Positions 42,604 to 61,756 of a stretch of DNA of 64,000 nt are shown here, in pieces. Numbering within the stretch: the first letter of the stretch is position 1; each line of letters starts with the position of its first letter. This DNA is from Candidatus Falkowbacteria bacterium S5_I03 (GTDB lineage Bacteria > Patescibacteriota > Patescibacteriia > Patescibacteriales > UBA12465), in NCBI GenBank assembly GCA_019248265.1, contig JAEHGX010000004.1:9495-73494 (forward strand), written 5' to 3'. The notes below the pieces were generated by a model, which saw nothing but the letters and a program-made list of their open reading frames with translations, had not been told where the DNA came from and did not search any database. Position numbers and translations under genes: made by a program.

Positions 42604-42643
42604 TGTAACAAAAAACAATCTAACTGGTACTAGTATGTGTAAG
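42604..42643 (-). promoter_or_regulatory. copy S of the shared promoter motif, upstream of the ECF sigma operon
   Basis: Minus strand: CTTACA (42643-42638), N17, GATTGT (42620-42615), then TTTTTGTTAC. The 15-mer ATTGTTTTTTGTTAC is identical to copy A. Confidence 0.5.
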
Positions 42644-42663
42644 TTGGAATTTTAAAAATTAAT

Positions 42664-42692
42664 TTGACGAATTTATTAAATTGTTTTATTAA
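42664..42692 (+). promoter_or_regulatory. sigma70-type promoter for the FN3-repeat gene
   Basis: TTGACG (42664-42669), 17-nt spacer, TATTAA (42687-42692). Confidence 0.5.
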
Positions 42693-42712
42693 ATCTCGTC
42701 TCCAATAAACAT

Positions 42713-43813
42713 ATGACAAAAAATAACAAAATTATTTCTGGAGTCATTGCCCTGTTTCTAGTGGCAACTCCAATTTTTGCTCTTAGAGCCTTAGCGGTCA
42801 CAGATACCACGCCGCCTAGCCAGCCCAATGGTTTAACGGCCGCACTTAATGTCGGTAACCAAGTAATTCTCTCTTGGAATCCGGCGACTGACAATACTGG
42901 CGTTATCGGTTACACTATTATAAGAAATACAGACATTCTCGCTAATGCTGCAAATACTAGCTATATTGATATCAATGTTCTCGCCAGCACTAATTATTCT
43001 TATTCCGTTCTGGCTTATGACGCTGCCGGAAATGTTTCTTCTTTATCCAGTTCGGTTTCTATAAATACGGCGAGCTCAAGCGATGTGACTGCACCGAGCG
43101 CCCCTAGCAATTTAAGTGCCAATGTTATTTCTTCAAACCAAGTGAACCTAAATTGGACCGCCGCTACCGATAATGTCGCGGTTGTCGGGTATACTATTCT
43201 AAGAAACAATGTAATTATTGCCAACTCGGCCACCAACAGCTTCTCGGATTTATCGGTTTCTCCAAATACTAGTTATTCCTACGCAGTATTAGCCTATGAT
43301 GCCGCCGGTAATCTTTCTCTACAATCGAATACGGCAGCGGCTACTACTCCAGCAACCGCAACCGACACCACTATTCCCAGCACTCCCGGAGACTTATTAG
43401 CAACCGCCATTTCTCCCAGCCGAATAAATCTTTCATGGTCAGTCGCTAACGATAACGTCGGCGTTACCGGCTACAACATTTATCGCAATAATGTTTTAAT
43501 CGCTACTTCCAGTGTTAACAGTTTTGCAAACATCGGTTTAAGCGCCTCAACTTCATATACCTTTTACGTGAAGGCTTACGATGCTGCCGGCAATATCTCC
43601 GCGCAGTCAAATGTTGCCACTGCAACAACCTTAGCCATTCCTAGCCATCGCGATGATGATGAGGATGAGGATGAAGATGTCAACTGTCATGAGGACAACG
43701 GCAAACATCTTGGACAATTAAAAGAACATGAAAATAACGGCAAGCATCTCGGACAACTAAAGCTTCGCCTTAACGCTCAGGTTGGACGCGATCATGGTCA
43801 TAAGAATAAATAA
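42713..43813 (+). CDS. secreted protein with three fibronectin type III repeats and an acidic/His-rich tail
   Basis: Signal peptide, then three ~95-aa repeats (..LSWNPATDNTGVIGYTIIRN..YSYSVLAYDAAGN..). Tail DDDEDEDEDVNCHEDNGKHLGQLKEHENNGKHLGQLK. Confidence 0.8.
   Translation: MTKNNKIISGVIALFLVATPIFALRALAVTDTTPPSQPNGLTAALNVGNQVILSWNPATDNTGVIGYTIIRNTDILANAANTSYIDINVLASTNYSYSVLAYDAAGNVSSLSSSVSINTASSSDVTAPSAPSNLSANVISSNQVNLNWTAATDNVAVVGYTILRNNVIIANSATNSFSDLSVSPNTSYSYAVLAYDAAGNLSLQSNTAAATTPATATDTTIPSTPGDLLATAISPSRINLSWSVANDNVGVTGYNIYRNNVLIATSSVNSFANIGLSASTSYTFYVKAYDAAGNISAQSNVATATTLAIPSHRDDDEDEDEDVNCHEDNGKHLGQLKEHENNGKHLGQLKLRLNAQVGRDHGHKNK
42830..43630 (+). repeat. three tandem ~285-bp coding repeats (FN3 modules)
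   Basis: The recurring protein blocks TDN.(G/A)V.GY.I.RN and AYDAAGN(V/L/I)S are visible at DNA level (gcttatgacgctgccggaaat / gcctatgatgccgccggtaat / gcttacgatgctgccggcaat). Confidence 0.75.
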
Positions 43814-43850
43814 CAAGTGATTTGAAATTGATCACCCGCAAAGTGAATCT

Positions 43851-43880
43851 AAAAAACTCGGTCAGACGATCGAGTTTTTT
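43851..43880 (+). terminator. intrinsic terminator after the FN3 gene
   Basis: AACTCGGTC-agac-GATCGAGTT followed by TTTT. Confidence 0.65.
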
Positions 43881-43954
43881 AGTTAAATATTTATTGATTT
43901 TTTGGTAAATAAATGGTATTTTAATAATGATTTTATTATTAAGCGTTAAATAAA

Positions 43955-44695
43955 ATGGCCAACAAAATAAAAGAAGATTTAAGCAGAAGGCTGAAAGAGA
44001 TTCAAAAAAACTTAGAAACCAGCAAGGACGTCCGCATCAAAAAATTAGAAGAATGGAGTGAAGAAGTTAAAAAGTCTTTTGATAATGCCATTAACTCGCT
44101 TGATTTTAAAATAAATATTTTACAAGAGTTAAAAGCGCAAGCCAATAATCTAAGGGCCTGGAAACTGAGCTCGCTAAAAACTCTTTTTCCTCTTAACTTT
44201 AAATATATCTTAAGCATGCCTTTCATCTATGGCATGATAATCCCGGGCTTCTTTTTCCATCTTTGTCTAGAAATATATCATCAGGTTTGTTTTCGAATTT
44301 ATGGCATTCCGCGGGTTAGACCGGGTGATTACTTTATTTATAATCGCCGCCTGCTTCCCTACTTAAATTGGATAGAAAAATTAAACTGCGTCTACTGCAG
44401 TTATTTCAATAATCTCTTGCAATACGCCGTGGAAATATCCGGCCGCACTGAACGCTATTGGTGCCCGATTAAATATGCGACCAGGGTCGAAAAAACTCAT
44501 TCCCAATACAATAAATTTGTGGACTATTTGGATGCTAAAAACTTCCGCGAAAAATGGGAAGACTTAAGAGATTTTTCTGACATTGAAAAAGCAGAAGCGC
44601 AAATCGCGGCTAGAAAAAAAGAACTGCTAAAAGACGAATGCTCGGAATGCGATTTTATAAACAAAAAAAACGAGGAGCCTAAAAAGAGAGCCTAA
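43955..44695 (+). CDS. hypothetical protein (coiled-coil N-terminus, hydrophobic hairpin, Cys-rich core)
   Basis: 246 aa, with ..LNCVYCSYFNNLLQYAVEISGRTERYWCPIKYA.. and C-terminal CSECDF. No family recognised. Confidence 0.55.
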   Translation: MANKIKEDLSRRLKEIQKNLETSKDVRIKKLEEWSEEVKKSFDNAINSLDFKINILQELKAQANNLRAWKLSSLKTLFPLNFKYILSMPFIYGMIIPGFFFHLCLEIYHQVCFRIYGIPRVRPGDYFIYNRRLLPYLNWIEKLNCVYCSYFNNLLQYAVEISGRTERYWCPIKYATRVEKTHSQYNKFVDYLDAKNFREKWEDLRDFSDIEKAEAQIAARKKELLKDECSECDFINKKNEEPKKRA

Positions 44696-44698
44696 TTT

Positions 44699-45226
44699 TT
44701 ATATTTTATAAAAATATATTTTTTTATTCTTAACGGCTATGGTCTTCTCGGGAACAAATTGAGGAATCGGAAAACTGCGACTGATAATCTGAGTGCCTGG
44801 ACGGCACTCTTTTTTGAACTTATCTCCTAATTTCCGCATGGTTTCATTATTCAAGTAACAATAAATCAAATCGGCGTCTTGCAGATTAAGCGTCAAAAAA
44901 TCTTTTTTCCATAATTTTATTTTACTTAAAGAAAGCTTTAGCCTTAACCAGTTAATGTAATAGAGGCTGGCTAAATTTTCTACGCCGATTAATTTAAGGC
45001 CTGGAAAAGTTTTCTCGGCGATTCTTAAAAATCGAGCGCGGCCACAACCGAGTTCATAGATTAGTAAAGGTGGATTAATGGAACTGGCCGCCAAGATAGT
45101 TTTAATAGTTTCTCTATCGGTAGAAATAAAGGGGGCATATCCTTTAAAAAAAACATTATAAAATTGAGAAACAAAAAAGACAAAATAAATAAGCAGGGCT
45201 AAAACGATGATAAGTAATAAATACAT
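44699..45226 (-). CDS. class I SAM-dependent methyltransferase with an N-terminal TM anchor
   Basis: Motif I IYELGCGRARF. Confidence 0.65.
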   Translation of the reverse strand: MYLLLIIVLALLIYFVFFVSQFYNVFFKGYAPFISTDRETIKTILAASSINPPLLIYELGCGRARFLRIAEKTFPGLKLIGVENLASLYYINWLRLKLSLSKIKLWKKDFLTLNLQDADLIYCYLNNETMRKLGDKFKKECRPGTQIISRSFPIPQFVPEKTIAVKNKKIYFYKI

Positions 45227-45295
45227 ATTTTAATATTATATTAGTAATTATAGCCTGGCGAGAAAATAAAAAGAAGCTTTGGACTGGCAAGCGCT

Positions 45296-45889
45296 ATGAG
45301 CCTTTGCTATACTATATATATGAAAACTAATTATCAAAGCTCAAAGTTAACCGCTATTATTAAATATTTTATCGCTCCCGTAATTACCGGACTGTTTATC
45401 TATATGCTCTTTTTGGTTGCTCGCGGCGGCGATTTGGAAGATTTTTCTTTAGCCGAACTGCCGCTGATGGCCTGGGCGGTCGGGATGGCGGTCGCGAGCG
45501 CCATTTATTTTAAGGCCGTAAATATAAGCGAACAAAATATTACAGTTGGTCACGGTATTAATAAAAAAATTATAGACTATAAGAATATCTCTTGGGTAGC
45601 CCAAACTTATATCGGTCGAACATCGGTATTTTTTAAATATCTAAATCCGGAAACTAAGCGCACGCAGATTATCAGCTTCATCCCTGAAATCTACACCGAC
45701 ACTCAATTCCCTAAAATTATCCGCCATCCTTATAGCGAATTAGAGGTCACTGATTTTATTAGAGCTCAAATCAAACTAGCCAAGGGAGAATATAATTCTC
45801 AGGCAGAGCCTTCGCAATGGACATTTCTGTGGTTAATTTTATTATCAATCCTTCCTTTTGCCTTAATTTCAATTTGGCTCATAAAATAA
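45296..45889 (+). CDS. hypothetical membrane protein
   Basis: Three to four TM helices. The likely true start is MKTNYQ at 45320. The stop abuts the next gene. Confidence 0.55.
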   Translation: MSLCYTIYMKTNYQSSKLTAIIKYFIAPVITGLFIYMLFLVARGGDLEDFSLAELPLMAWAVGMAVASAIYFKAVNISEQNITVGHGINKKIIDYKNISWVAQTYIGRTSVFFKYLNPETKRTQIISFIPEIYTDTQFPKIIRHPYSELEVTDFIRAQIKLAKGEYNSQAEPSQWTFLWLILLSILPFALISIWLIK

Positions 45890-46732: not shown

Positions 46733-46747
46733 GGAATTTAACAAAGT

Positions 46748-47182: not shown

Positions 47183-47235
47183 ATAATTTTTTAATACTTA
47201 AATATTATCATTAATAAAACGGAAAGTAAAAAAAT

Positions 47236-47268
47236 AAAAAAAACGGGTCTGGTTGAGATCCGTTTTTT
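47236..47268. terminator. bidirectional intrinsic terminator
   Basis: AAAAAA-AACGGGTCT-ggttg-AGATCCGTT-TTTT. Confidence 0.7.
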
Positions 47269-47297
47269 ATTATCCTTGAAGGCGGATAACTTGCCTT

Positions 47298-47909
47298 TTA
47301 ACAGTTCACATCAAATTCGCCAATCTCAGTCCAACCCCCTATTTCATCAGGGTTCATTTTTTGAAAATCTTCACGGCTGACAATTGTTCCTCGCTTCTTT
47401 TCTGGGTCAGAATAAAATATCTTCCCCAAGTCCTCCTTACAAATTTTCATTTCTCTTAGAAGACGCTTAGTCGAACCAAAGCTGTCTAATTTCATGTCCA
47501 ATAGCTGCCAGTTTTGCAGTGGCGGTTCTTGCGGATTTTGCAAAATTGCCATAACTGCTCCGGCATACAAAATGTCAGCTATTTCTTTTTTCTTTGGAGT
47601 GTCTGGCCCGCCAACAGCTTCATAAATCTTATTCATTAACAAATTAAGATTGAGCTTATCGCAGGGTAAGTTGGCATCTAATAAATCGTTGCCAGCTTTA
47701 AGATCATAGAGGACTAAAGCGCTGTACCGTTCTCTTTCGGGAAACCTCCTAATAAGTTCCAGAGTTTGAACCAAAACTTCGTGTGGGTCGGTTGATTCAA
47801 ATTGAATCAGGGTGCAGCGCTCGCCGAGCCAAATCTTTATTCTGAGCAAGGACTCAAAATCTTCTCCGGTTACTTCGGAGCCTAAAACAAAAATAATTCT
47901 TTTTTCCAT
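47298..47909 (-). CDS. hypothetical protein (203 aa)
   Basis: Last gene of the unit-A operon; no terminator lies between 47910 and 47983. No motif recognised. Confidence 0.5.
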   Translation of the reverse strand: MEKRIIFVLGSEVTGEDFESLLRIKIWLGERCTLIQFESTDPHEVLVQTLELIRRFPERERYSALVLYDLKAGNDLLDANLPCDKLNLNLLMNKIYEAVGGPDTPKKKEIADILYAGAVMAILQNPQEPPLQNWQLLDMKLDSFGSTKRLLREMKICKEDLGKIFYSDPEKKRGTIVSREDFQKMNPDEIGGWTEIGEFDVNC

Positions 47910-47983
47910 GACTAATTGATTTTACTAACGTTTCTTTTGTTTATTCCATACCGATTTTAAATTTTGCCTCAACGCTAAAATCC

Positions 47984-48520
47984 TTAAAACACTGTTCGCA
48001 AAAAATTTGCAATCTTAGCCCAAGTAATTCGCCAACGCTTGGCGTAGACATAAATTTCCGCGTTAACGTTATCGTGGTCGTAATGCCCGCGATAAACAAA
48101 ACCGGAGTTTTGCAAATTTTTAACTGGCTGATTATTCCCGTCTTTAACTAAAGTGCGGATTTTAAACAAACCATTTTGCAGGCAAAATTTAAGGCGATGC
48201 TCAATTAATATCCGATGATATCCGCGCTGGCGAAAATTCGGAAAAACATAAGCATTGGTCAAAACCGCCACCTCAGCTTTAAAATAAAAAGCTTGATTGC
48301 CATCCTGGTCGTAGAAACTAAGACCGCCTAAAGCTGCCAACTGACCATTCTTGATAACGGCAAAAAACTTACTGCCTTTTTTCTGCCACTCGCAACAATC
48401 GTGAATATTGTTCTGATAAAAGAACTCTCGATCATGAGCGGCAAAGAAGGCTAGGGTCCGTCTTAGCTCGCCGAGGCTTAGCTCGGAAATTTCTGAAGCT
48501 CGGACATTAGAGGTGTTCAT
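47984..48520 (-). CDS. GNAT family N-acetyltransferase
   Basis: ..YVFPNFRQRGYHRILIE.. (acetyl-CoA loop). Overlaps the upstream gene by 4 nt. Confidence 0.7.
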   Translation of the reverse strand: MNTSNVRASEISELSLGELRRTLAFFAAHDREFFYQNNIHDCCEWQKKGSKFFAVIKNGQLAALGGLSFYDQDGNQAFYFKAEVAVLTNAYVFPNFRQRGYHRILIEHRLKFCLQNGLFKIRTLVKDGNNQPVKNLQNSGFVYRGHYDHDNVNAEIYVYAKRWRITWAKIANFLRTVF

Positions 48521-49431
48521 TGTTTTCGGAAATTAAAATCCGATTCTAACACCGGCTCGATGGCCATCAAAGTAATGTAGGTTGTTTCTTCGCCATCGAT
48601 TGCGGCCAACATGATGCTCATGGAATTTAGGCCGAGAAAATATTCCCGCCCCTCAAAAGTGACTACCGCCGAACCGCCATACATGCCGATTATTTCTTCA
48701 GACATAATATTGGGGATACGGACAACATACATCCCTGATTTTGATTTAGCATTTTCTTCGGCGCCTTCGTAAGGATAGCGAGCAGAACGCTGAATGAGTT
48801 TTTGATCATGCGGATTAAGATAATAGACCGTCCCTCTAATTGTGTAGCGATAGACTTGTTTATCTCCGCGAAAACAATTAAGCAACTTAATTGTGCAAGG
48901 AGAATCATCCAGCCTGGGATTAACTTTTTCCAGGAGCGGATAAGAAATCGGAGTCTGTTCAAAATTATTAGCAGCAAACATGATTAGGTCTCCCTTAGAA
49001 AAAATTTTAAATTCATTTTGCTTTAAAGCGTCTCCTAAATCTAAATTTTCGCCACGCATGCGTTTAGGCATAACGGCGTAAGCGGAGCTATCAACTGCCA
49101 ACAAAGTTAGGTTGCAATGATTCATCAGATTCCAAATACTATCCTGTCCTTGGGATAAGCTCCTGAGATTAGGAATAGCCGTCAAAGCCTTATTATCTTC
49201 CGGCCAAGTGACCGCAAAAACTAGACTTCCAGGAAAATCCTGAATCATTTCCTCGTTCAAAACTTCCTTAGCGATTGAAGCTTCGGAAAAGTTAGTAATT
49301 CGGTTGATGCTCTCCAGAGAGAATTGGGGCACAATCTTTTCTGTCAAAGAAAACATGAAAATAACTATGGCGATGATTAAGCACACGCCAGTAATCATAG
49401 CTAAAGGACGTAAAGGTTTTTTTGCTTCCAT
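48517..49431 (-). CDS. hypothetical membrane-anchored protein (304 aa)
   Basis: N-terminal TM PLAMITGVCLIIAIVIFMF. First gene behind promoter module A. Confidence 0.55.
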   Translation of the reverse strand: MEAKKPLRPLAMITGVCLIIAIVIFMFSLTEKIVPQFSLESINRITNFSEASIAKEVLNEEMIQDFPGSLVFAVTWPEDNKALTAIPNLRSLSQGQDSIWNLMNHCNLTLLAVDSSAYAVMPKRMRGENLDLGDALKQNEFKIFSKGDLIMFAANNFEQTPISYPLLEKVNPRLDDSPCTIKLLNCFRGDKQVYRYTIRGTVYYLNPHDQKLIQRSARYPYEGAEENAKSKSGMYVVRIPNIMSEEIIGMYGGSAVVTFEGREYFLGLNSMSIMLAAIDGEETTYITLMAIEPVLESDFNFRKQ

Positions 49432-49510
49432 TTTAGAGAATTTTTATTGGTGAATATTAATTTTTTAAGGTAACAAAAAACAATACCACAATGTATTGTT
49501 TTTGTAAATA
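49432..49510 (-). promoter_or_regulatory. copy A of the shared promoter/leader module
   Basis: Minus strand: TTTACA (49508-49503), N17, TGgTATTGT (-10 at 49485-49480), then TTTTTTGTTACCTTAAAAAATTAATATTCACCAA..ATG. Confidence 0.6.
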
Positions 49511-51413: not shown

Positions 51414-52400
51414 TTAAGTTATTAATTTAATCGCATTCTGAAAAAAAATTGCATTACGATTATAATCGCTATCAGCCCCAGAGGCTTGCAAGGCGGCTCT
51501 AATCGCCGAGAGAGATTGCAGAAAAACCATGTTTCCTGGCTTTAGTGCCAATTTAGAAAACCTAGAATCAAGCCAGGGCCAAGCAAATCCCGGTAAAAAC
51601 AAGGTTTGTTCTTCGTGTCTGATAAATTCCCCCCTTAAATACCCGAAGGGGGCGTCACTCCCAAATATAATTCTCTTACAGCCAATAATCTTAACTGCCG
51701 CCAAAACCGACTCGGGGTCAGTAACCATGGCGGTATCAAAGAAAACATTGCTAAAGGGTCGGAGTGTTTCCAGCGCAGACGGCAACTGTTCATTAAATAA
51801 GAAAGCGCCGCCCAAATGAGCAATAATAAAATTAATCCATCGGTATTTATTAGCTAAAAATGCCAACTCCGAGGCGTTCTGCCAAACATTCTGCGGCAGA
51901 TGAATAATAAGAAACCGGTTCCCAAAATTAAGCCATTCCCAGGTCTCTTTAGAAAAATGCTTAGAAATTTCATCGTTCCCTCCCTGTGTTCGGATTTTTG
52001 TCTTAATTCCGTTAACATTTCGGAAGGGCTGCCAGTCAACCTGGTTTACCAAAGAAGATGTTAAACAAGGAATAGGATAAATTTCCATCGGCCTTGGTCT
52101 GAGACGATAAAGATTAAAATTATTCTGACTTTCATCAGGAGAAAATGGTAAGCCGAAAGCCACCGCCTGATAAAAAGATGGAACAAAATCAAACTTTTCT
52201 AACACTAATCGATGAGTATTAAGATCAAACCAATTAAATGTCTGCCCCGGATTTTTGGCTGAATGATTAAATATATCCAACCCGTCATTATTAAGATGAA
52301 GATGAAAATGACAATCAATAATACGATGAGGCAACCAATTCTTTAAACCGGCAAACAATTCTAAATCGTTCGCCATCGGCAATAATTTTGATACATCCAT
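51414..52400 (-). CDS. amidohydrolase-fold (TIM-barrel metal-dependent hydrolase) protein
   Basis: IIDCHFHLHL (HxH), ..IIAHLGG.., ..FGSDAPF. Confidence 0.65.
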   Translation of the reverse strand: MDVSKLLPMANDLELFAGLKNWLPHRIIDCHFHLHLNNDGLDIFNHSAKNPGQTFNWFDLNTHRLVLEKFDFVPSFYQAVAFGLPFSPDESQNNFNLYRLRPRPMEIYPIPCLTSSLVNQVDWQPFRNVNGIKTKIRTQGGNDEISKHFSKETWEWLNFGNRFLIIHLPQNVWQNASELAFLANKYRWINFIIAHLGGAFLFNEQLPSALETLRPFSNVFFDTAMVTDPESVLAAVKIIGCKRIIFGSDAPFGYLRGEFIRHEEQTLFLPGFAWPWLDSRFSKLALKPGNMVFLQSLSAIRAALQASGADSDYNRNAIFFQNAIKLIT

Positions 52401-52434: not shown

Positions 52435-53487
52435 TTACTTACTATACTTCCAACAATAAGGATCTTCAGCTAACAAATCATTATTAATAAGCAAGGCTCT
52501 AGCTCGACAACCGCCGCAGATAAAACGATCGCAACAAGAACCGCAGTGGCCGGAGTATTCCCGGCTCAAGAGCTGTTTTACTCCTTTAATTTTTTCTCGG
52601 TCATTCCAAATATCAACTAATGACTGCTGATAAAAATCACCTAAAACTATATCCTGGAGAAAAGTACAAATTCCAATTTTACCGTCACATCTAACATGAA
52701 TCATGTCCTGGCCAGCTGTACAGCCACTAATCACTTTACCAGAATAAACATCGCCGAACTCTTTTAATTTAGCCATAATCTTAGGATCAGCCAAATGATA
52801 AAGAGGGTCCTGGCAATTTATTACCATCTTAATTTTTCTTTTTTCCCTCTGAACGCTCAGCTCTTCTAAGAATTTGCGATATTCTTCCGGTGTAATAACA
52901 AAAATTGGATTGGCGCCATTGGCGCGCCCGGTAAAAATAGCCGCTCTGGCTAGGAAAGTATCTACTCCAAGTTCCTCTAACATGTCTAAGGTTGAGGATA
53001 AATCATTCATATTAAGCCGAGTGACCGTGAATTCCACATGGACTTTTATACCCAGCTTCTTTAAGATTTTTATAGAATTAATTGCTTTCTGCAAGGCGCC
53101 ATCTAAATTTCTGATTTTATCGCTTATTTCCGGCTTGGAGCCATCCAGACCAACGCCGAAAGAATAGAGGCCGGCATCTTTAAGTTTCTTAGCCAAGTCC
53201 TCAGTAAGTAATAAGGAATTACTTTGAATTCTAACCTTAATCCCTTGTTTAGTTGCTTCCTTAACAATCTCTACAATATCAGGTCGCAAAAGAGGCTCAC
53301 CGCCAGTAAGGGCGAGAGTCGGACAGCCAAGCTCTTTCAATTCTCGAATGAGCCTAACCATGTCCTTCCCTTTTATTAAATTATTCTCTAAAGTCTGAGG
53401 CGAAGCGGCTGCACGACAATGGATACAACACAAATTACATCTTTGAGTAAGTTCCCAAAGAGCGTAGTGCAAATTATTATTTGCCAT
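52435..53487 (-). CDS. radical SAM enzyme with a C-terminal SPASM-type auxiliary-cluster domain
   Basis: WELTQRCNLCCIHC (CX3CX2C), GGEPLL, and C-terminal GCTAG..CDGKIGIC.. and CGSCCDRFICGGCRA. Confidence 0.85.
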   Translation of the reverse strand: MANNNLHYALWELTQRCNLCCIHCRAAASPQTLENNLIKGKDMVRLIRELKELGCPTLALTGGEPLLRPDIVEIVKEATKQGIKVRIQSNSLLLTEDLAKKLKDAGLYSFGVGLDGSKPEISDKIRNLDGALQKAINSIKILKKLGIKVHVEFTVTRLNMNDLSSTLDMLEELGVDTFLARAAIFTGRANGANPIFVITPEEYRKFLEELSVQREKRKIKMVINCQDPLYHLADPKIMAKLKEFGDVYSGKVISGCTAGQDMIHVRCDGKIGICTFLQDIVLGDFYQQSLVDIWNDREKIKGVKQLLSREYSGHCGSCCDRFICGGCRARALLINNDLLAEDPYCWKYSK

Positions 53488-53780: not shown

Positions 53781-54890
53781 ATGCAAGAGGTAATCAAAAA
53801 AAGCTTGGAGCTGAGAGACTTATCAGATCCTGCTCAAGGAAAACACGCGATCAACCTAATGATTGATCTTATCTACCAGAAGTTGGAAGAAATTCCCGAT
53901 TGTCCTAAGCCGGAAATAAGGCGTTCCAGCCCCATAACAACGGTGGCTGATAACTTTGACCGGCTCTACTTCCCGCCAGACAATTTAAGCCGTTCTAAGA
54001 CTTATACCAGATATCTGGACGAGAAAACACTTCTGCGAACTCACACCACTGCGCAAATTCCAGAAATTTTGGAAGAATTAAGCTTATCACGGCCGGATGA
54101 TTTCTTGGTTATGTGCCCAGGAATTTGTTTCCGACGCGATGTCATTGACCGAAAACATGTCGGCGAGCCGCACCAAATGGATATTTGGCGCATAAAAAAA
54201 GGGCTTCCCCGTATAACCAGAGAAACCTTGTTGACATTCGTCCAATCGGTAGTAGAAGCAATAAAACCTGGAGCGAAATTCCGCGCCAACGAAGTTGAGC
54301 ACCCTTACACCGATCGAGGATTAGAAATCGAAATCCTCATCAACGGCGACTGGCTGGAAATAATGGAATGCGGCGAAATTAAAAGCCGCCTACTCTCTGA
54401 TTCCGGATTAAATCCGGAAGAATATTCAGGCCTGGCAATGGGCTTGGGCTTAGACAGGCTGGTAATGATTATCAAACGGATAGACGATATCAGATTACTA
54501 AGAGCCTCTAATCCTAAAATTAAGGCTCAGATGGAAGACTTATTAGTCTATCGCCCAGTTTCAAAATTCCCGCCGATTAAACGCGACATTTCAATCTCTG
54601 TAGACGAAAATCAAACCGAAGAAGATGTCTGCGAATCAGCCAGAGAAACCCTGCAAAACCGGATAGAGGCTTTGGAAGAATTACAAATAATTTCTACAAC
54701 TGCCTACACCGAGCTTCCGCCGCAAGCGATTGAAAGATTAAAAATCTCTCCCGGACAAAAAAATCTCCTGTTGAGATTAACTTTCCGCTCGCACGAAAAA
54801 ACGCTTTCCCAAGAAGAAGCTAATGAAATGCGGGATGCAATCTATCGCGCCCTGGATCAAACCGAAGGCGGCGGATATATTAAAAAATAA
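53781..54890 (+). CDS. PheS-like class II aminoacyl-tRNA synthetase catalytic core fused to an FDX-ACB-like C-terminal domain
   Basis: LRTHTTAQIPE, motif-2-like ICFRRDVIDRKHVGEPHQMDIW and motif-3-like GLAMGLGLDRLVMI. C-terminal SKFPPIKRDISISV...LTFRSHEKTLSQEEAN resembles the ferredoxin-fold anticodon-binding domain. Confidence 0.65.
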   Translation: MQEVIKKSLELRDLSDPAQGKHAINLMIDLIYQKLEEIPDCPKPEIRRSSPITTVADNFDRLYFPPDNLSRSKTYTRYLDEKTLLRTHTTAQIPEILEELSLSRPDDFLVMCPGICFRRDVIDRKHVGEPHQMDIWRIKKGLPRITRETLLTFVQSVVEAIKPGAKFRANEVEHPYTDRGLEIEILINGDWLEIMECGEIKSRLLSDSGLNPEEYSGLAMGLGLDRLVMIIKRIDDIRLLRASNPKIKAQMEDLLVYRPVSKFPPIKRDISISVDENQTEEDVCESARETLQNRIEALEELQIISTTAYTELPPQAIERLKISPGQKNLLLRLTFRSHEKTLSQEEANEMRDAIYRALDQTEGGGYIKK

Positions 54891-54906
54891 AAAACACTTT
54901 CTTTTG

Positions 54907-54937
54907 AAAAAGCTAACCAGAATGGTTAGCTTTTTTA
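54907..54937 (+). terminator. intrinsic terminator after the PheS-like gene
   Basis: AAGCTAACC-agaat-GGTTAGCTT followed by TTTT. Confidence 0.7.
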
Positions 54938-55061: not shown

Positions 55062-55808
55062 TCAGATGATATGCATCATTTGATAAATGGTGCCCTCGAC
55101 GACAATCAAGCCCCGGGCTTGCAAGTAGAGTACAACAGGAACGGTATTAACAACAATGTTATCGCCCGGGAAATCCACACAAATGAATATTTTTCCGGTT
55201 TCATTTATGACTAAACAGCGATCAAGAATTTCTTTGCCATTCTCCTTAAAATACACCTGAATACATTCACCCAAATTTTCAAAACGCCCAAATGTCAATC
55301 CGAGCAGATGGCAAATAAATGCTAAATCTTCCTCATTGATTTCATCAACCTTGATAACTCTCTTGTCCGCAGTTTCCGTTTCCGCCGCTTCTGCCGATTC
55401 TTTATTAAGACCAAGAGACAAAAAGATGCCCACCATTTCCTCAACAGTGTTATCGCTGCCCCAGCTCTTTTTATAAAAACCGTCGATGTGTTCCGGTCGG
55501 GGATCATACATGGAGAACACATAAACTTTAGCTGCGGGGTTAATCTTCTTAATTTCTTCCGCCAGCTTAGAACCATCCTTTTCCTGATCGGAAAATTTTA
55601 CATTACGCTCATCATGGAACTGATCGCTAGTGATAACCACCAGCTCGCAATCTTTCGGAACCTCATTTAGAGTATTCTCGAAATCTCGCTGATAAGAGAT
55701 GACGTCATTTAATTCCGGAAAAACGGTCCGCAGTTTCTCGCGAATAAGCTTCAACGCCTCGGGGTTAGATTGAACAATAATAATTTTTCGCATTGTTAAC
55801 TCCTCCAA
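55062..55808 (-). CDS. hypothetical protein with a degenerate receiver (CheY-like)-looking N-terminal half
   Basis: KIIIVQSNPEALKLIREKL.. has a flavodoxin-like beta-alpha pattern but lacks the acidic pocket (QS instead of DD). Second gene of unit B. Confidence 0.45.
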   Translation of the reverse strand: MEELTMRKIIIVQSNPEALKLIREKLRTVFPELNDVISYQRDFENTLNEVPKDCELVVITSDQFHDERNVKFSDQEKDGSKLAEEIKKINPAAKVYVFSMYDPRPEHIDGFYKKSWGSDNTVEEMVGIFLSLGLNKESAEAAETETADKRVIKVDEINEEDLAFICHLLGLTFGRFENLGECIQVYFKENGKEILDRCLVINETGKIFICVDFPGDNIVVNTVPVVLYLQARGLIVVEGTIYQMMHII

Positions 55809-55811
55809 ATT

Positions 55812-56294
55812 TTAAGGTAAATCAAAAATCTTTTCTTCATCAGCCAGAGGGCCGGTTCTGGTCCAAGTGTTATTATAACGAATTAAAAGTGACTTATTGT
55901 CATCAAGTAACTTGAGATAACGGATTGTAACCGCATTAAACTTATAAGAAGCGACGCGACGGTAATCTTTCAAGATAATTAATTCGGTACAACTCAAACC
56001 AGATTGGCCGATAATAATAATTTGCATATCCGGCTTAAGTTTGCCAAAAAATATTTTGGTTTTAACTAAACCGCCGCCATATGAATACGAATCATAAAGC
56101 CAATTATAAACCAGGGTTTCCGGATGTAAATAAATAACCGTGGCTTTCTTGGTTATATCGTCAGCAAAAACAATCGGCGTCGGAACCGCGCGGGCATCAA
56201 TAAAAGGAATGATTTTCCCTTCCGGCTCGAAGTCAATGCGCTCGCAACTATTAAAAATAGCGGCCAGCAAAAGCAATAAAATAAATTTTTTCAT
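55812..56294 (-). CDS. putative lipoprotein (160 aa)
   Basis: MKKFILLLLLAAIFNSCE (lipobox-like). First gene behind promoter module B. Confidence 0.6.
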   Translation of the reverse strand: MKKFILLLLLAAIFNSCERIDFEPEGKIIPFIDARAVPTPIVFADDITKKATVIYLHPETLVYNWLYDSYSYGGGLVKTKIFFGKLKPDMQIIIIGQSGLSCTELIILKDYRRVASYKFNAVTIRYLKLLDDNKSLLIRYNNTWTRTGPLADEEKIFDLP

Positions 56295-56373
56295 GACATT
56301 TCTCCTTTGTTGGTTAATATTTGATTTTTAAGGTAATAAAAAATAATACCACAAGGCATTGTTTTTGTAAATA
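56295..56373 (-). promoter_or_regulatory. copy B of the shared promoter/leader module
   Basis: Minus strand: TTTACA (56371-56366), N17, TGgTATTAT (-10 at 56348-56343), then TTTTTTATTACCTTAAAAATCAAATATTAACCAA..ATG. Confidence 0.6.
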
Positions 56374-56741: not shown

Positions 56742-56760
56742 AAAATTATTATTCCCCGCT

Positions 56761-56790: not shown

Positions 56791-56832
56791 TTTGAAAATA
56801 TTTATCTTTCCCCTACTTAAAGTCAAACCAAC

Positions 56833-59322: not shown

Positions 59323-59390
59323 ATAATCTAGTTGGTTATTTTATCTCTATTGCTTTATTATAACAAAAAATAAGCTAATCTAAAAAAAAT

Positions 59391-59933
59391 CTATTCAAAC
59401 AATTCCGGCTTCTTAAAGCGCGACAAAGCACAGATAGTAGGATTTTTGAAAGATTCCTCGCGGTCAATTAGGTTGTCGGTAAAATAACCGACACAGCCTT
59501 CATGTTGTTTGCTATTCGTTACTCCGCGCAACTCATCCATCACTTCCCCTAGTTCTTTGCCACTTTCCTTAACCGCCCGAACGATCTTATCCGGCATATA
59601 AAGTCCCTCGCCGCCTGAATAACCCCATTTTCCTGCCTTATCAACAATCGCCACAAAACCCATGAGTAAAGTTCCAATATTCGTCTCATTTAGGCCGCCC
59701 TCCAAACCAACGCCATAATCAGCCTCCCCGACTTGAAGTGCCGCTAGTGCCCGATTTTTCGCCCCCTGGGTAATCTCCATAAAAGACATCGGCATATCAG
59801 AAACTCCCGAAGGCACAGAAAAACCAAGAACTTCGCATTCTCCCAGCATGGCTGTAAAAGCTGATTTCACCGCGTTTACTTTAACCGGATTCAAAGACCC
59901 GACGGCAACTTTAAGCATATGGCTATTATTCAA
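59391..59933 (-). CDS. inosine/xanthosine triphosphatase (YjjX / DUF84 NTPase family)
   Basis: KVAVGSLNPVKVNAV.., ..GVGLEGG..; 180 aa. Confidence 0.7.
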   Translation of the reverse strand: MNNSHMLKVAVGSLNPVKVNAVKSAFTAMLGECEVLGFSVPSGVSDMPMSFMEITQGAKNRALAALQVGEADYGVGLEGGLNETNIGTLLMGFVAIVDKAGKWGYSGGEGLYMPDKIVRAVKESGKELGEVMDELRGVTNSKQHEGCVGYFTDNLIDREESFKNPTICALSRFKKPELFE

Positions 59934-59964
59934 ATATTTATATCTTAATTCTATTAGAATCTAA

Positions 59965-60001
59965 GAAAAAAAGAAACCCCGAAACTAACAGCTTCGGGGT
60001 T
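59965..60001 (-). terminator. intrinsic terminator after the repeat-protein gene
   Basis: AACCCCGAA-loop-TTCGGGGTT with TCTTTTTTTC on the minus strand. Confidence 0.7.
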
Positions 60002-60021
60002 AAAACAAGATTTTTAAACAC

Positions 60022-61677
60022 TTAGGCGATTGCCAGGCTCTTAACAGCCGCTATCCGTTCCGGCCGAAATTTAGCCCTTTGAATTCGGTCATGCAAACGA
60101 TTGGCAAGAACTTTAACATCAGGATTACGTTCATGGAAGCGACAAGTAAATATTTTGTCGGAATAGCGCTTCAGCTTCTTAGCATCCCAATACATAATAG
60201 CTCTTAAAGCCAACAAAGAATGAAGTCCAAAATAGCCACTGAGCTCAAACATTCTTTCCGGGTTAAACTTATTGGGCTTAATCCGAAAAGCCAGCGTCTT
60301 TAAATACTGATATTTATCAGGATCACAATGGTCATCAACCAATTTTCGCAAATCTAATAAAAGTTCATCGGCCTGAATTTTAAAACATAAGGCCAAGCTC
60401 ATGTGCCTAAGATTAAATTCGGGAACCTGGGAGGCAAAGGCTCTTTGAACTATCTTTATAGCCTTTCCTTTTAAATCTCGCCTCTTAATGGAGCGAGCCA
60501 ACTTTTTAGCTTGCGCCTGGATATACGGGTCTGAATGGTTATGACAAGTAAAAATAGCCTGGATGTTGGCTGACAACGAGCTTGAATTCAAGGCGCTCAG
60601 TAATTTCATCTTCAACTCCAGGGTCAAAAAAGAAAAATAGTAGCCGGATAAATTGGAGAGTTCAGCCATAATGGCATCGATTTTCCGCTCCCAAACTTCC
60701 AATTCTGAAACTTTGATAGACAAAGCTAAACGCTTAGCCTGCGGTCGCAGTTTCGGAAAATCCTGGCAAGCGATTAGGGCATCGACATATTCGGCTAATT
60801 GAGCCGTTGGTAAAGGCGCAATAATCTTAAGAATAAGTTTAAGCGCCTGTTCAGCATCTTCGTTTAAACGCCAACACTTTAGCAAATAAGCGAGATGAAG
60901 TTTTTGCTCCTCATCCGGAAGAGACGCAATAACACGCATTGCCAGTTTTGTGGAGCCATTCATCGGCCAGTCATGAACACTGTCCCGACAAGCAAGCAGA
61001 TAATTAAAATGGGGCTTAATTTTTTCAGCGGGCCAAAAATACATTGCCTTAAAAGACAATTCCTTGGCGCGACCAAATTTATCATCTTCCAAAGCGCAAT
61101 TCATAATGAAATCGAAGCGAGATTCAAGCTCTTCATTCTTTACAAAATGCTGACCTAGGGCCCCAATAGCTCGACTACGCGCAAAAGTACGCACATTGGC
61201 ATTGCCATCCTGCGCCCAAATTACCAAGGAATCAAGATAAGGATAATACAGAGCGTAATCAATGCCATCCACCAAATAATCGGCTTGCTTGCGTTTTTTT
61301 TCATCTGGCGAACGATAGCAAGCGATTAAATAATCAATTTTATCCAAACGATACTTGCGATCCTTATTTTGTATCGCTTGATAAAGCAGGGTTTCAGCCA
61401 ACTTTACGACTTGGGCGTTTTCCGAATGCTCACATTCAAGCAAATAATCAAAATTTTGCCAAAGCAAATCTTTTCTGATTTCATCAATCGCCAGTTCCCA
61501 GGCCAAATCACGAACCTTGGAACTTTTAGATTTTTGGCAATCCAGAAAATAGCGCAGGAACTTTTCATCATCGCGAGCCTCTAAACTTTTAAAAGCTTGT
61601 TTAATCTCGGCGGCGGAATAATTTTTTGCCAAACAGGCACTTAAAAAATCAGTACTTACAGGTTTCGGGTTTTTCAT
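60022..61677 (-). CDS. alpha-helical repeat protein (about 11 x 38-45 aa units, HEAT-like) with a conserved Cys per unit
   Basis: Recurring unit starts: YFLDCQKS, YLLECEHS, YLIACYRS, FIMNCALE, YLLACRDS, YLLKCWRL, ALIACQDF, IFTCHNHS, IFTCRFHE. Confidence 0.6.
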   Translation of the reverse strand: MKNPKPVSTDFLSACLAKNYSAAEIKQAFKSLEARDDEKFLRYFLDCQKSKSSKVRDLAWELAIDEIRKDLLWQNFDYLLECEHSENAQVVKLAETLLYQAIQNKDRKYRLDKIDYLIACYRSPDEKKRKQADYLVDGIDYALYYPYLDSLVIWAQDGNANVRTFARSRAIGALGQHFVKNEELESRFDFIMNCALEDDKFGRAKELSFKAMYFWPAEKIKPHFNYLLACRDSVHDWPMNGSTKLAMRVIASLPDEEQKLHLAYLLKCWRLNEDAEQALKLILKIIAPLPTAQLAEYVDALIACQDFPKLRPQAKRLALSIKVSELEVWERKIDAIMAELSNLSGYYFSFLTLELKMKLLSALNSSSLSANIQAIFTCHNHSDPYIQAQAKKLARSIKRRDLKGKAIKIVQRAFASQVPEFNLRHMSLALCFKIQADELLLDLRKLVDDHCDPDKYQYLKTLAFRIKPNKFNPERMFELSGYFGLHSLLALRAIMYWDAKKLKRYSDKIFTCRFHERNPDVKVLANRLHDRIQRAKFRPERIAAVKSLAIA

Positions 61678-61756
61678 TTTTTCGTGTGTTTATGGTTAAT
61701 ATTCAATTTTCAAAGTAATAAAAAACAATACCACAAAGGTATTGTTTTAGTCAACA
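61678..61756 (-). promoter_or_regulatory. copy C of the shared promoter/leader module
   Basis: Minus strand: TTGACT (61754-61749), N18, TGgTATTGT (-10 at 61730-61725), then TTTTTTATTACTTTGAAAATTGAATATTAACCAT..ATG. Confidence 0.6.

What the first reader, a model, noticed from the sequence alone, without database searches (positions are those of the whole stretch)
42604..61756. Conserved promoter/leader module is shared by three orphan gene units and the ECF sigma operon, suggesting a candidate regulon
Three intergenic segments are about 80% identical over 65-80 nt, each immediately upstream of a minus-strand start codon: A 49432-49510, B 56295-56373 and C 61678-61756. In gene orientation they read TTTACA/TTGACT-N17/18-TGgTATTGT-TTTTTTRTTACYTTRAAAAWYWAATATTMACCAW...ATG. 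That is a -35 box, an extended -10 and a conserved ~50-nt leader. The spacer carries a palindrome (ACAATacATTGT in A). A fourth site (S, 42604-43) lies upstream of the ECF sigma/anti-sigma operon. It has the same spacing (CTTACA-N17-GATTGT) and an identical 15-mer, ATTGTTTTTTGTTAC. By my rough base-composition estimate, a chance match of that kind in a 64-kb AT-rich window is unlikely. A weaker relative (TAACAAAAAATAAGC...GGTTAT) precedes the 829-aa HExxH gene at 59323-59390. Inference: ECF sigma factors are typically autoregulated and control envelope or secreted proteins. The downstream genes here are a TM-anchored orphan+GNAT+orphan, a lipoprotein+receiver-like orphan, and a Cys-containing helical-repeat protein. 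The shared module may therefore define this sigma factor's regulon, or the operator of a common repressor.
Basis: partly seen in the sequence, partly recalled or inferred. Interest (0 to 1): 0.7.

Follow-up and report, generated by a model that had tools for sequence, protein, structure and literature searches.

The report
Hairpin-carrying housekeeping promoter family
Three orphan gene units in this candidate-phyla-radiation (Patescibacteria) genome share a reused housekeeping-type promoter plus leader whose -10 box sits inside a conserved hairpin; it is not the ECF sigma factor's regulon, whose likely promoters carry a different motif.

Summary
The three 80-nt segments A, B and C are real: 82-86% identical, with nhmmer E values of 1e-21 to 7e-23. 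Sites S and W are not members. An exact 15-mer match like S arises in about 20% of shuffles.

The module is a near-consensus sigma-70-type promoter: TTGACA/TTTACA, 17-18 nt, TRTGn-TATTRT. A T5 tract, a purine and a 42-43-nt leader follow.

Its spacer is complementary to the extended -10, the -10 and the T tract, giving an 11-13-bp hairpin. About 40 such promoters occur in related Patescibacteria (Falkowbacteria-like) contigs, mostly before orphan genes. When the -10 varies (seven dinucleotide types), the left arm co-varies: 62 of 70 positions against about 26 expected. This holds between orthologous promoters too. It points to base pairing, not a sequence-specific operator.

The ECF idea fails. 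The sigma locus carries its own conserved motif, TGTAAC-N17-GTAY, twice: once before the sigma gene and once before the divergent fn3 gene. The S 15-mer is that second motif read backwards. A relative that lacks fn3, sigma and anti-sigma at the syntenic locus keeps the hairpin promoters.

Most likely this is a reused promoter-leader cassette with a built-in terminator-like hairpin. The hairpin's function is inferred, not shown.

The parts
49432..49510 (-). Module A. -35 TTTACA 49508-49503; left arm AAAACAATACA 49502-49492; loop TTGT 49491-49488; right arm GGTATTGTTTTT 49487-49476, containing -10 TATTGT 49485-49480; candidate +1 G at 49474; 43-nt leader; ATG at 49431.
   Evidence: RNA hairpin -9.9 kcal/mol, z -3.0
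56295..56373 (-). Module B. -35 TTTACA 56371-56366; left arm AAAACAATGCC 56365-56355; loop TTGT; right arm GGTATTATTTTT 56350-56339, containing -10 TATTAT 56348-56343; candidate +1 A at 56337; 43-nt leader with GGAG; ATG at 56294. The hairpin has one C.A mismatch and one G.U pair.
   Evidence: -7.6 kcal/mol, z -1.7
61678..61756 (-). Module C. -35 TTGACT 61754-61749; left arm AAAACAATACC 61748-61738; loop TTTGT; right arm GGTATTGTTTT 61732-61722, containing -10 TATTGT 61730-61725; candidate +1 A at 61719; 42-nt leader; ATG at 61677. The stop codon of the upstream co-oriented GNAT gene lies 17 nt before the -35 box.
   Evidence: -12.2 kcal/mol, z -4.5
47298..49431 (-). Genes behind A: a 304-aa membrane-anchored orphan (48517-49431), a GNAT (47984-48520) and a 203-aa orphan (47298-47909).
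55062..56294 (-). Genes behind B: a 160-aa lipoprotein-like orphan (55812-56294) and a 248-aa protein (55062-55808) with a CheY-like receiver fold and an unmatched C-terminal domain.
60022..61677 (-). Gene behind C: a 551-aa orphan with no Pfam hit. Orthologues in four other genomes also sit behind hairpin promoters.
42546..42576 (-). NOT part of the module. Candidate ECF-type autoregulatory promoter: TGTAAC (42576-42571), N17, GTATTAAT (42553-42546), before the sigma gene ATG at 42531.
   Evidence: ECF promoter features from PMC5758882
42604..42634 (+). NOT part of the module. Site S read on the + strand: TGTAAC (42604-42609), N17, GTACTAGT (42627-42634), pointing at the divergent fn3 gene 42713-43813. 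On the minus strand the same bases (GATTGTTTTTTGTTAC) precede a conserved TATAAT at 42595-42590.
41186..42531 (-). ECF sigma factor (42034-42531) and DUF5667 anti-sigma factor (41186-42022). This is context for the rejected regulon idea.

Best explanation
A, B and C are copies of a reused expression cassette. It consists of a near-consensus housekeeping (sigma-70/SigA-type) promoter with an extended -10 box (TTGACA-N17/18-TRTGn-TATNNT), a T5 discriminator, a purine start and a fixed 42-43-nt A/U-rich leader.

The cassette belongs to a promoter class that is widespread in this Patescibacteria (Falkowbacteria-like) lineage. In this class the promoter spacer is kept complementary to the extended -10, the -10 and the T tract. 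A single strand therefore folds into an A-tract / 11-13-bp stem / 3-5-nt loop / T-tract hairpin, the same outline as this lineage's intrinsic terminators.

Most likely mechanism (inferred): RNA polymerase arriving from the upstream gene or tRNA terminates at the hairpin and U tract. Housekeeping holoenzyme then starts afresh a few bases further on. Each accessory gene unit is thus transcriptionally insulated and gets a standard 5' UTR.

The ECF sigma factor is not involved.

Shown: the sequence family, its promoter-like anatomy, its fixed position before start codons, the co-variation of the arms, and its independence from the ECF locus. Inferred: promoter activity, the start site, and the hairpin acting as a terminator or insulator. 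Rough confidence is about 0.85 for 'housekeeping-type promoter-leader family, not ECF' and about 0.4 for the terminator/insulator role.
For: Promoter anatomy and position:
- Searches show the boxes and spacing.
- The distance from stem end to ATG is 44-47 nt in most of ~35 members.

Family beyond the window:
- 3 copies in MAG CAZCQW01.
- 10 metagenome contigs.
- Diverged copies found by profile search.
- A structure-aware scan gives 46 raw hits, about 35 of them true, in 296 kb. The window alone gives 9 hits, against 1.4 per window in shuffles.

Co-variation:
- With the register fixed on invariant positions only, the two variable -10 positions pair with the left arm in 62/70 cases. Slid partners give 4-30; permutation gives mean 25.9, maximum 41.
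- One search gives 57/60.
- Seven pair types occur.
- Five orthologous promoters of the 551-aa gene show -10 boxes TATTGT, TATATT, TATATT, TATTAT and TATTGT with left arms CAATA, ATATA, ATGTA, CAATG and TGATA.

Two promoter populations: hairpin-type and plain promoters coexist. The T tract goes with the hairpin class.

Terminator-like features:
- RNA stems of -7 to -13 kcal/mol.
- Same A-tract/stem/T-tract outline as bona fide terminators here (54904).
- The hairpin starts within 10 nt of a tRNA-Gln 3' end in L007.
- In 10-14 cases the upstream co-oriented stop codon is 9-55 nt away with no other terminator.
- Hairpins with internal non-wobble mismatches, or lost altogether, number 1/14 where the hairpin is the only candidate terminator. 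They number 8/19 where the neighbour is divergent or a canonical terminator precedes. Fisher p=0.03, from manual classes.

Not ECF.

Precedent: RNA polymerase can re-initiate at nearby promoters after intrinsic termination (PMC6978380).
Against: - No transcript data exist. Promoter activity and the start site are inferred from consensus only.
- The core stems are A/T-rich, with 2-3 G-C pairs and A-U pairs next to the U tract. That is weak by canonical terminator standards.
- Several members sit just after a strong canonical terminator (L040 10716, L041 4166, L037 675, L004 3618).
- Several sit in divergent intergenic regions with intact hairpins, where no termination is needed (window A, L007 6586, L043 7946).
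- The automated test of hairpin stability against context was not significant (Mann-Whitney p=0.09). The significant Fisher test uses post hoc manual classes.
- The orthologue of the A operon in L046 works with a plain promoter and the same leader, so the hairpin is dispensable for that gene.
- Arm homogenisation by template switching could mimic compensatory change.
Confidence: 0.6

Rival explanations
1. The module marks the regulon of the neighbouring ECF sigma factor.
For: The 15-mer ATTGTTTTTTGTTAC is shared by A and S. The reverse strand of A reads GGTAAC-N18-GTAT, a near miss to the ECF-type motif. The downstream genes are envelope-type orphans.
Against: - The boxes are TTGACA / TGnTATNNT, not the AAC-type -35 box (PMC5758882).
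- The sigma locus has its own motif, TGTAAC-N17-GTAY. It is conserved in 5 species and occurs only twice per locus, both times in the sigma-fn3 intergenic region.
- B and C read GTAAT, not GTAAC.
- The 15-mer match is expected in ~20% of shuffles.
- S scores E=4-6 against the module profiles.
- L050 (CP066698.1) lacks fn3, sigma and anti-sigma at the syntenic place but keeps two hairpin promoters.
Confidence: 0.03
2. The inverted repeat is the operator of a dimeric repressor or activator that co-regulates the units.
For: The palindrome overlaps the -10 box and the spacer, a classic repressor position. Inner half-sites ATACC/GGTAT are fairly constant. A receiver-fold protein is encoded behind module B and its orthologues.
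Against: - The arms co-vary through seven sequence types, several within one 8-kb locus (L007). A sequence-reading protein would fix these positions or leave them free to vary independently.
- Even the inner pairs co-vary: CC/GG, TC/GA, GC/GC and CT/AG.
- The distance between the arms varies from 3 to 5 nt within genomes.
- The right arm is fully explained by promoter function.
- The C-terminal domain of the receiver-fold protein has no match to DNA-binding folds.
Confidence: 0.1
3. The hairpin acts at the DNA level. It could be a cruciform that makes the promoter sensitive to supercoiling. Or it could be a fold-back on single-stranded DNA that rebuilds a duplex extended -10 promoter, so that genes are expressed from incoming or replicating single strands (a miniature Frpo-like ssDNA promoter).
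For: - The repeat spans exactly from the 3' edge of the -35 box to just before +1, and always includes the extended -10 box, which can work without a -35 box.
- The A tract is kept paired with the T tract, so the long stem itself appears to be selected.
- Hairpins persist where termination is not needed.
- The promoters sit in accessory islands next to tRNA genes, IS elements and defence genes.
- ssDNA promoters are established for F and ColIb-P9 plasmids (PMC9849209).
Against: - Frpo-type elements are long stem-loops that rebuild both the -35 and -10 boxes. Here the -35 box stays outside the stem.
- The loci are chromosomal and syntenic across species, not obviously transferred as single strands.
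- Arms of 11-13 bp are short for cruciform extrusion in vivo.
- There is no direct evidence.
Confidence: 0.12
4. It is simply a duplicated or mobile promoter (promoter reuse, or a small repeat element). The palindrome has no function of its own and is kept by descent and by template-switch homogenisation of the arms.
For: - Homologous promoter-leader units sit before non-homologous genes, as described for putative mobile promoters (PMC3575422).
- Promoter cores are exchanged between orthologues while the leader stays.
- tRNA-3'-end-like fragments and IS200/IS110 genes lie next to copies in L007.
Against: - No terminal repeats or target duplications are seen, and the upstream flanks are unrelated.
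- Orthologous promoters keep the hairpin over about 20-25% protein divergence, with compensated changes.
- Site distribution is bimodal, with a distinct hairpin class.
- Decay is concentrated in contexts where a terminator is not needed.
Confidence: 0.15

Closest known systems
Extended -10 (TGn / TRTGn) sigma-70/SigA promoters
   Same: TTGACA-like -35 box, 17-18-nt spacer, TRTG-n-TATNNT, and a purine start a few bases downstream. Plain promoters of the same consensus occur elsewhere in the window.
   Different: The spacer is not free sequence. It is kept complementary to the extended -10, the -10 and the discriminator. The discriminator is always T5-6, and a conserved leader is attached.
Intrinsic (rho-independent), often bidirectional, terminators
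   Same: An A tract, a stem, a 3-5-nt loop, a stem, and 6 or more T. This is the same outline as the canonical terminators of this lineage (e.g. window 47238-47268, 54904-54934). The hairpin often lies directly behind a co-oriented gene or tRNA.
   Different: The stems are A/T-rich (2-3 G-C pairs). The 3' arm is a -10 box, and a consensus -35 box abuts the 5' arm. Some copies stand where nothing needs terminating.
Putative mobile promoters / promoter reuse (Nijveen, Matus-Garcia and van Passel; PMC3575422)
   Same: Highly similar promoter regions sit before unrelated genes, within and between genomes.
   Different: Here the shared unit has a defined internal structure with co-variation. Orthologous positions are stable across species, and no mobility signature was found.
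Frpo-type single-stranded DNA promoters of conjugative plasmids (PMC9849209)
   Same: A promoter whose boxes lie in a fold-back structure of one strand.
   Different: Frpo is a long stem-loop that rebuilds both boxes, and it is active only as ssDNA in a plasmid leading region. Here only the -10 side is in the stem, the element is also a normal duplex promoter, and it is chromosomal.
T7 class II terminators that double as E. coli extended -10 promoters (bioRxiv 10.64898/2026.02.12.705533)
   Same: One short sequence has both terminator and sigma-70 TGn-promoter properties.
   Different: Those are hairpin-less class II signals in phage or synthetic contexts. Here the element is a natural hairpin family in a bacterial lineage.
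ECF sigma-dependent promoters (AAC -35 motif, -35-proximal T tract, CGT-type -10; PMC5758882)
   Same: Nothing in modules A-C. The neighbouring sigma locus does carry such a motif: TGTAAC-n-TTT...N17...GTAT.
   Different: The modules have TTGACA/TTTACA and TATNNT boxes.

Membership tests
Sigma-70/SigA housekeeping promoter with extended -10 | -35 hexamer close to TTGACA | tested here: met
   TTTACA, TTTACA and TTGACT in A, B and C. TTGACA in most of about 35 relatives.
Sigma-70/SigA housekeeping promoter with extended -10 | 17 +/- 1 bp spacer and a -10 hexamer TAnnnT preceded by TGn | tested here: met
   Spacer of 17 or 18 nt; TGg-TATTGT or TGg-TATTAT.
Sigma-70/SigA housekeeping promoter with extended -10 | Oriented towards, and at a short fixed distance from, a start codon | tested here: met
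   42-43 nt from the conserved purine to the ATG in A, B and C. 44-47 nt from stem end to start in most relatives.
Sigma-70/SigA housekeeping promoter with extended -10 | Transcription starts mapped downstream of the -10 box | not testable with these tools
   No transcript data are available.
ECF sigma regulon promoter | AAC motif in the -35 box and a group-specific -10 box (PMC5758882) | tested here: not met
   The modules lack it. TGTAAC-N17-GTAY occurs only in the sigma-fn3 intergenic region, in 5 species.
ECF sigma regulon promoter | Co-occurrence of the motif with the sigma factor across genomes | tested here: not met
   L050 (CP066698.1) keeps hairpin promoters while fn3, sigma and anti-sigma are absent from the syntenic locus. 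No hit from that 977-kb contig appears among the 120 best sigma homologues. The rest of that genome could not be scanned.
Intrinsic terminator | A stable stem-loop immediately followed by a U tract | tested here: met
   11-13-bp stems, -7 to -13 kcal/mol as RNA, z down to -4.5 to -6, followed by 6 or more T.
Intrinsic terminator | A G+C-rich stem, especially at its base | tested here: not met
   2-3 G-C pairs near the loop, with A-U pairs at the base.
Intrinsic terminator | Located at the 3' end of a co-oriented transcription unit | tested here: inconclusive
   True for C and for about two thirds of relatives (including after tRNA-Gln). False for A, B and about 6 others. Stability against context gives p=0.09. 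Manual mismatch counts give p=0.03.
Palindromic operator of a dimeric transcription factor | Conserved half-site sequence and fixed half-site spacing | tested here: not met
   Seven co-varying arm variants. Inter-arm distances of 3, 4 or 5 nt occur 2, 10 and 18 times among 30 members.
Mobile repeat element (MITE, Correia, REP/REPIN) | Terminal inverted repeats or target duplications, a cognate transposase, and many near-identical copies | tested here: not met
   No shared flanks or duplications. Only 3 copies in 64 kb, at about 80% identity. No transposase in the window. IS200/IS110 genes lie near copies in L007 only.
Frpo-like ssDNA promoter | A long stem-loop that rebuilds both the -35 and -10 boxes (PMC9849209) | tested here: not met
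   The -35 hexamer lies outside the stem, or only its last 3 bases pair.
Known RNA family (Rfam) | A match at the gathering score | tested here: not met
   No Rfam hit in the window. In related loci only tRNA and one SAM riboswitch were found.

The most novel reading that the evidence does not exclude
The hairpin is a working part of a dual element that has not, to my knowledge, been described as a class. It would be a natural, lineage-wide 'terminator inside a promoter': the spacer of a consensus housekeeping promoter is evolved to pair with its own -10 box and discriminator. Polymerases arriving from upstream would be released at the very point where new initiation occurs, possibly being recycled there. 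Alternatively, the fold-back could make the promoter respond to DNA strandedness or supercoiling. Either way, this would be a general way in which tiny CPR genomes with few regulators insulate and drive accessory orphan genes.
Probability: 0.35. Interest if true: 0.7.

Novelty: new variant of a known kind. Interest (0 to 1): 0.5.

Why it matters
Almost nothing is known about transcription signals in Patescibacteria (CPR), which cannot be grown alone and encode few regulators. This result gives:
- a concrete, testable housekeeping-promoter consensus for the lineage;
- a distinct promoter class in which the normally unconstrained spacer co-evolves with the -10 box;
- a likely two-promoter mini-regulon (sigma operon plus fn3 surface protein) for a widely conserved CPR ECF sigma factor.

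If the hairpin does terminate and insulate, it would be a compact natural design for independent expression of accessory genes. It would also be a natural case for studying coupling between termination and re-initiation. If not, it remains a clear example of promoter-leader reuse before orphan genes.

Tried and rejected
- Rfam at gathering score on the whole window found nothing. tRNA/tmRNA search found none.
- A viral-contig scan for the core pattern found nothing.
- blastn of a class II module against 50,697 phage records gave only weak A/T-rich matches inside coding genes.
- In the genome-collection scan, 3 of 6 hits were chance (Roseburia, Bacteroidota, Pelagibacterales). In the metagenome scan, about 20 of 30 hits were chance matches inside genes.
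- MAFFT alignment of the promoter cores (A2) put the gap inside the left arm, so it was not used for pair counting. Registers were instead anchored on invariant positions.
- Wobble-orientation test (G.U in the sense strand against A.C): the observed ratio of about 14:3 equals what random transitions in the A/C-rich left arm would give. It cannot tell RNA from DNA, or one strand from the other. This was reasoned by hand from the list.
- Hairpin stability against genomic context, automated: p=0.09. The terminator detector missed three obvious terminators.
- Bidirectional-promoter idea: the bottom strand has a -10-like hexamer but no TG and no -35 box. Rejected by inspection.
- attC (integron) and dif/pdif recombination sites were considered. 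No GTTRRRY box and no integrase are present. The arm sequences vary, and the position is fixed relative to start codons, not gene ends.
- IS200/IS605 or REP-like hairpin with a TTAC cleavage site was considered. The hairpin sequences are too diverse for one transposase, and the window has no transposase.
- LytTR-type DNA-binding domain in the 248-aa protein: no significant fold match for the C-terminal domain.
- Pfam at E<=10 on the module-driven proteins gave nothing credible.
- Paper searches for the assembly accessions and for promoter motifs in Patescibacteria returned nothing.

Full report
OBSERVATION

Read in gene orientation, the three minus-strand segments A (49432-49510), B (56295-56373) and C (61678-61756) are clearly homologous. 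Pairwise identity is 82-86% over the ~66 nt from the -35 box to ...ACCA, and 74-77% up to the ATG. A 26-nt core pattern finds exactly these three sites, with none expected. An nhmmer profile of the three gives E = 1e-21 to 7e-23, and the next best hit in the window has E~1.

Site S contains the 15-mer at 42605-42619 but otherwise does not match. It scores E = 4-6. It has no hairpin and no shared leader, and it lies 74 nt from its ATG rather than ~40. An exact 15-mer shared between any part of the modules and the rest of the window arises in 59 of 300 dinucleotide shuffles.

Site W (59323-59390) is a separate plain promoter, TTTAGA-N16-TGtTATAAT.

ANATOMY

Each module reads as follows:
- an A/T-rich stretch;
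- TTGACA-like -35 box;
- 17-18 nt spacer;
- TRTG-g-TATTRT;
- T5 tract;
- a purine;
- TTACYTTRAAAA..AATATTMACCA..ATG.

That is a near-consensus housekeeping promoter with an extended -10 box. A purine lies 6 nt after the -10 box, and the leader is 42-43 nt long.

Other promoters in the window share the boxes but not the rest. Examples are TTGACA-N17-TGaTATTAT at 62681 and TTGACT-N18-TATTAT at 63184.

The spacer directly after the -35 box (AAAAYAATRYC) is the reverse complement of GGTATTRTTTT, that is, of the extended -10, the -10 and the T tract. Folded as one strand, this gives an 11-bp stem with a 4-6-nt loop. Energies are -12.2 kcal/mol (C), -9.9 (A) and -7.6 (B), with z-scores of -4.5, -3.0 and -1.7.

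WHERE IT COMES FROM AND HOW FAR IT REACHES

The window matches NCBI MAG contigs (GCA_019248335/255/385). Homologues of its proteins are labelled Patescibacteria group and Candidatus Falkowbacteria.

Scanning one genome per species for TTGTGGTATTNTTTTTTNTTAC found three true copies in another MAG, CAZCQW01, which is labelled Gammaproteobacteria but has CPR-like gene content. A metagenome scan found ten more true members on different contigs.

Profile searches and a structure-aware scan of all fetched loci then found diverged members. About 35-40 non-redundant hairpin promoters were found in ~300 kb. The raw scan gave 46 hits in 296 kb. The window alone gave 9 hits, against 1.4 per window in dinucleotide shuffles.

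The window itself holds only A, B and C. All lie in the 12-kb accessory stretch; none is among the housekeeping genes at 1-42 kb.

The genes behind these promoters are unrelated to each other and mostly orphans. Nine of ten first genes in L040, L041 and L043 have no Pfam hit, and none of the window's three does.

Several leader types are attached to the same promoter core:
- the window type;
- TTAACAATTTGTTTAACTAAAATAGGAG;
- GATTGTTAAAATCATATTTTTGAAC;
- a long structured leader.

THE HAIRPIN IS MAINTAINED BY COMPENSATORY CHANGE

In the diverged members the -10 hexamer differs: TATTAT, TATTGT, TATATT, TATACT, TATGCT, TATGAT, TATTCT. The left arm changes with it.

To avoid circularity I selected sites by the boxes alone. 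I then fixed the pairing register on the invariant positions alone and scored the two variable -10 positions. They are complementary to their partners in 62 of 70 cases (n=35). With the partner slid by 1-3 nt the count is 4-30. Permutation gives mean 25.9, sd 4.1, maximum 41 of 5000. An earlier version gave 57/60.

The inner pairs co-vary too: CC/GG, TC/GA, GC/GC and CT/AG. Invariant-position pairing is bimodal, with a chance peak at 3-5 and a second peak at 8-9 of 9. So hairpin promoters are a distinct class next to plain ones.

Orthologous promoters of the 551-aa gene in five genomes show the same pattern:

| Genome | -10 box | Left arm |
|---|---|---|
| window C | TATTGT | CAATA |
| L040 | TATATT | ATATA |
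| L043 | TATATT | ATGTA |
| L050 | TATTAT | CAATG |
| L051 | TATTGT | TGATA |

Four different arm sequences occur within the single 8-kb locus L007. The distance between the arms is 3, 4 or 5 nt in 2, 10 and 18 of 30 members.

These facts fit intramolecular base pairing. They do not fit a dimeric protein that reads a fixed palindrome.

THE ECF SIGMA FACTOR

The sigma factor (42034-42531) and its DUF5667 anti-sigma factor are widely conserved in Patescibacteria. I aligned the region upstream of the sigma gene from five species, spanning 65-100% sigma identity. Two blocks are conserved.

The first is TGTAAC-N17-GTATTAAT, just before the sigma ATG. It has the AAC -35 motif and the -35-proximal T tract described for ECF promoters (PMC5758882).

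The second is GATTGTTTTTTGTTAC, which is the S 15-mer. Read on the + strand, it is again TGTAAC-N17-GTAC/GTAT, pointing at the divergent fn3-domain gene (42713-43813).

GTAAC-N17-GTAY occurs exactly twice in each of the five loci. Both copies lie in this intergenic region, and the motif occurs nowhere else in the 64-kb window.

The likely ECF targets are therefore the sigma operon itself and the fn3 gene. This is an inference from conservation and resemblance. Modules B and C read GTAAT at the corresponding place. Only the reverse strand of A gives a near miss, GGTAAC-N18-GTAT.

In the complete Falkowbacteria genome CP066698.1, the syntenic locus goes straight from the 238-aa gene to the NAD-binding gene. 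It has no fn3, sigma or anti-sigma genes, yet two hairpin promoters are present nearby. No hit from that 977-kb contig appears among the 120 best sigma homologues.

The regulon hypothesis is therefore not supported.

WHAT THE HAIRPIN DOES (INFERENCE)

Its outline is A tract, stem, short loop, stem, then six or more T. This is the outline of the canonical terminators of these genomes, for example 47238-47268 and 54904-54934.

Observations that favour termination:
- In C and about a dozen relatives, the stop codon of a co-oriented gene lies 9-55 nt upstream with no other terminator in between.
- In L007 the hairpin begins within 10 nt of the 3' end of tRNA-Gln.
- Hairpins with internal non-wobble mismatches, or lost altogether, number 1 of 14 where the hairpin is the only candidate terminator. 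They number 8 of 19 where the neighbour is divergent or a canonical terminator precedes. Fisher one-sided p=0.03, or 0.047 after merging one orthologous pair. The classes are manual and post hoc.
- The orthologue of the A operon in L046 sits in a divergent context. It has a plain promoter with the same leader.

Observations against termination:
- The stems are A/T-rich.
- Several members follow a strong terminator or stand in divergent regions with intact hairpins, window A among them.
- The automated stability test gave only p=0.09.
- The ratio of wobble pairs to A.C mismatches is what random transitions in the left arm would give, so it does not identify the nucleic acid or the strand.

I therefore favour a fused terminator/insulator-promoter at about 0.4. 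Post-termination re-initiation by RNA polymerase (PMC6978380) is a possible bonus. Three rivals remain open: a DNA-level role (cruciform or single-strand fold-back; compare Frpo, PMC9849209), a structure-blind mobile promoter (PMC3575422), and a protein operator.

COMPARISON AND NOVELTY

As a promoter, the module meets every sequence criterion of an extended -10 housekeeping promoter. Only start-site mapping is missing. It fails the tests for an ECF promoter, a fixed palindromic operator, a MITE/REP-type repeat, a Frpo-like ssDNA promoter and any Rfam family.

I did not find a description of a class in which the spacer co-evolves with the -10 box to keep a terminator-shaped hairpin. The nearest published idea is that some T7 class II terminators are also TGn promoters (bioRxiv 10.64898/2026.02.12.705533).

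I rate it a new variant of known kinds (promoter reuse plus intrinsic-terminator architecture). Interest is moderate, because the function of the hairpin is unproven.

Noticed in passing
window 42546-42634 (both strands): Two divergent copies of TGTAAC-N17-GTAY lie between the ECF sigma gene and the fn3-domain gene. They are conserved in five species and absent elsewhere in the window. They probably form an ECF mini-regulon: autoregulation of the sigma operon plus the fn3 surface protein. A sigma-70-like TTGTTT-N17-TATAAT overlaps them on the minus strand.
   Followed up: yes
window 53781-54890 (+), with 52435-53487 (-) and 51414-52400 (-): The 369-aa protein matches NCBIfam NF051887, 'PheS-related mystery ligase SrmL' (E 7.6e-135). 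It sits next to a radical SAM protein gene in what appears to be a small biosynthetic cluster.
   Followed up: no
window 55062-55808 (-): The 248-aa protein behind module B is the most conserved module-driven gene. Its N-terminal domain has a CheY-like receiver fold (RcsB REC, E 2.8e-6). It lacks the usual acidic pair after strand 1 but keeps D62, S99 and K114. Its ~100-aa C-terminal alpha/beta domain has no significant structural match.
   Followed up: partly
L004 3540-3600 (-), L008, L010, L014, L032, L033: The second leader type, TTAACAATTTGTTTAACTAAAATAGGAG, shares an exact 11-mer (TTTGTTTAACT) and the following GGAGA with the phage T7 gene 10 leader (NC_001604 22930-22966). This may mean it acts as a translation-enhancing leader, or the match may be chance.
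   Followed up: partly
L040 10716-10850 (+), L007 1438-1585 (+), L004 4263-4113 (-): Some hairpin promoters are followed by a ~110-130-nt leader with a long co-varying inverted repeat (TTATTGGATTATC...GATAATTCAATAA). There is no Rfam match at gathering score. It may be an undescribed cis-regulatory RNA.
   Followed up: no
L007 1362-6700; L033 1150-1193; L010 3390-3420 and 2890-2915 (-); L008 7620-7650 (-): In the second sub-lineage, the hairpin promoters are preceded by fragments that resemble tRNA 3' ends (TTCGAA...CCGAGCA). L007 is an island that starts at tRNA-Gln and holds four such units plus IS200-type and IS110-type transposase genes. This suggests stepwise accretion of units at a tRNA site.
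   Followed up: partly
L002 1-6000 (sequence beyond window position 64000): The window's accessory stretch continues into a defence island with DUF87, DruA, SduA (Shedu), MazG-like, SLFN-type helicase and HD-domain genes.
   Followed up: no
L046 1085-1173 against window 49432-49510: In a species with 93% identical sigma factor, the A operon keeps the same leader, but the promoter core is a plain TTGACA-N18-TGtTAATAT with no hairpin or T tract. Promoter cores are thus exchanged independently of leaders.
   Followed up: yes
window 2864-5332 (-): An 822-aa protein shows weak TraD/VirD4-type coupling-protein similarity among housekeeping genes.
   Followed up: no
L004 6794-6900 (-): A SAM riboswitch (RF00162, 61 bits) is present in the related MAG.
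   Followed up: no
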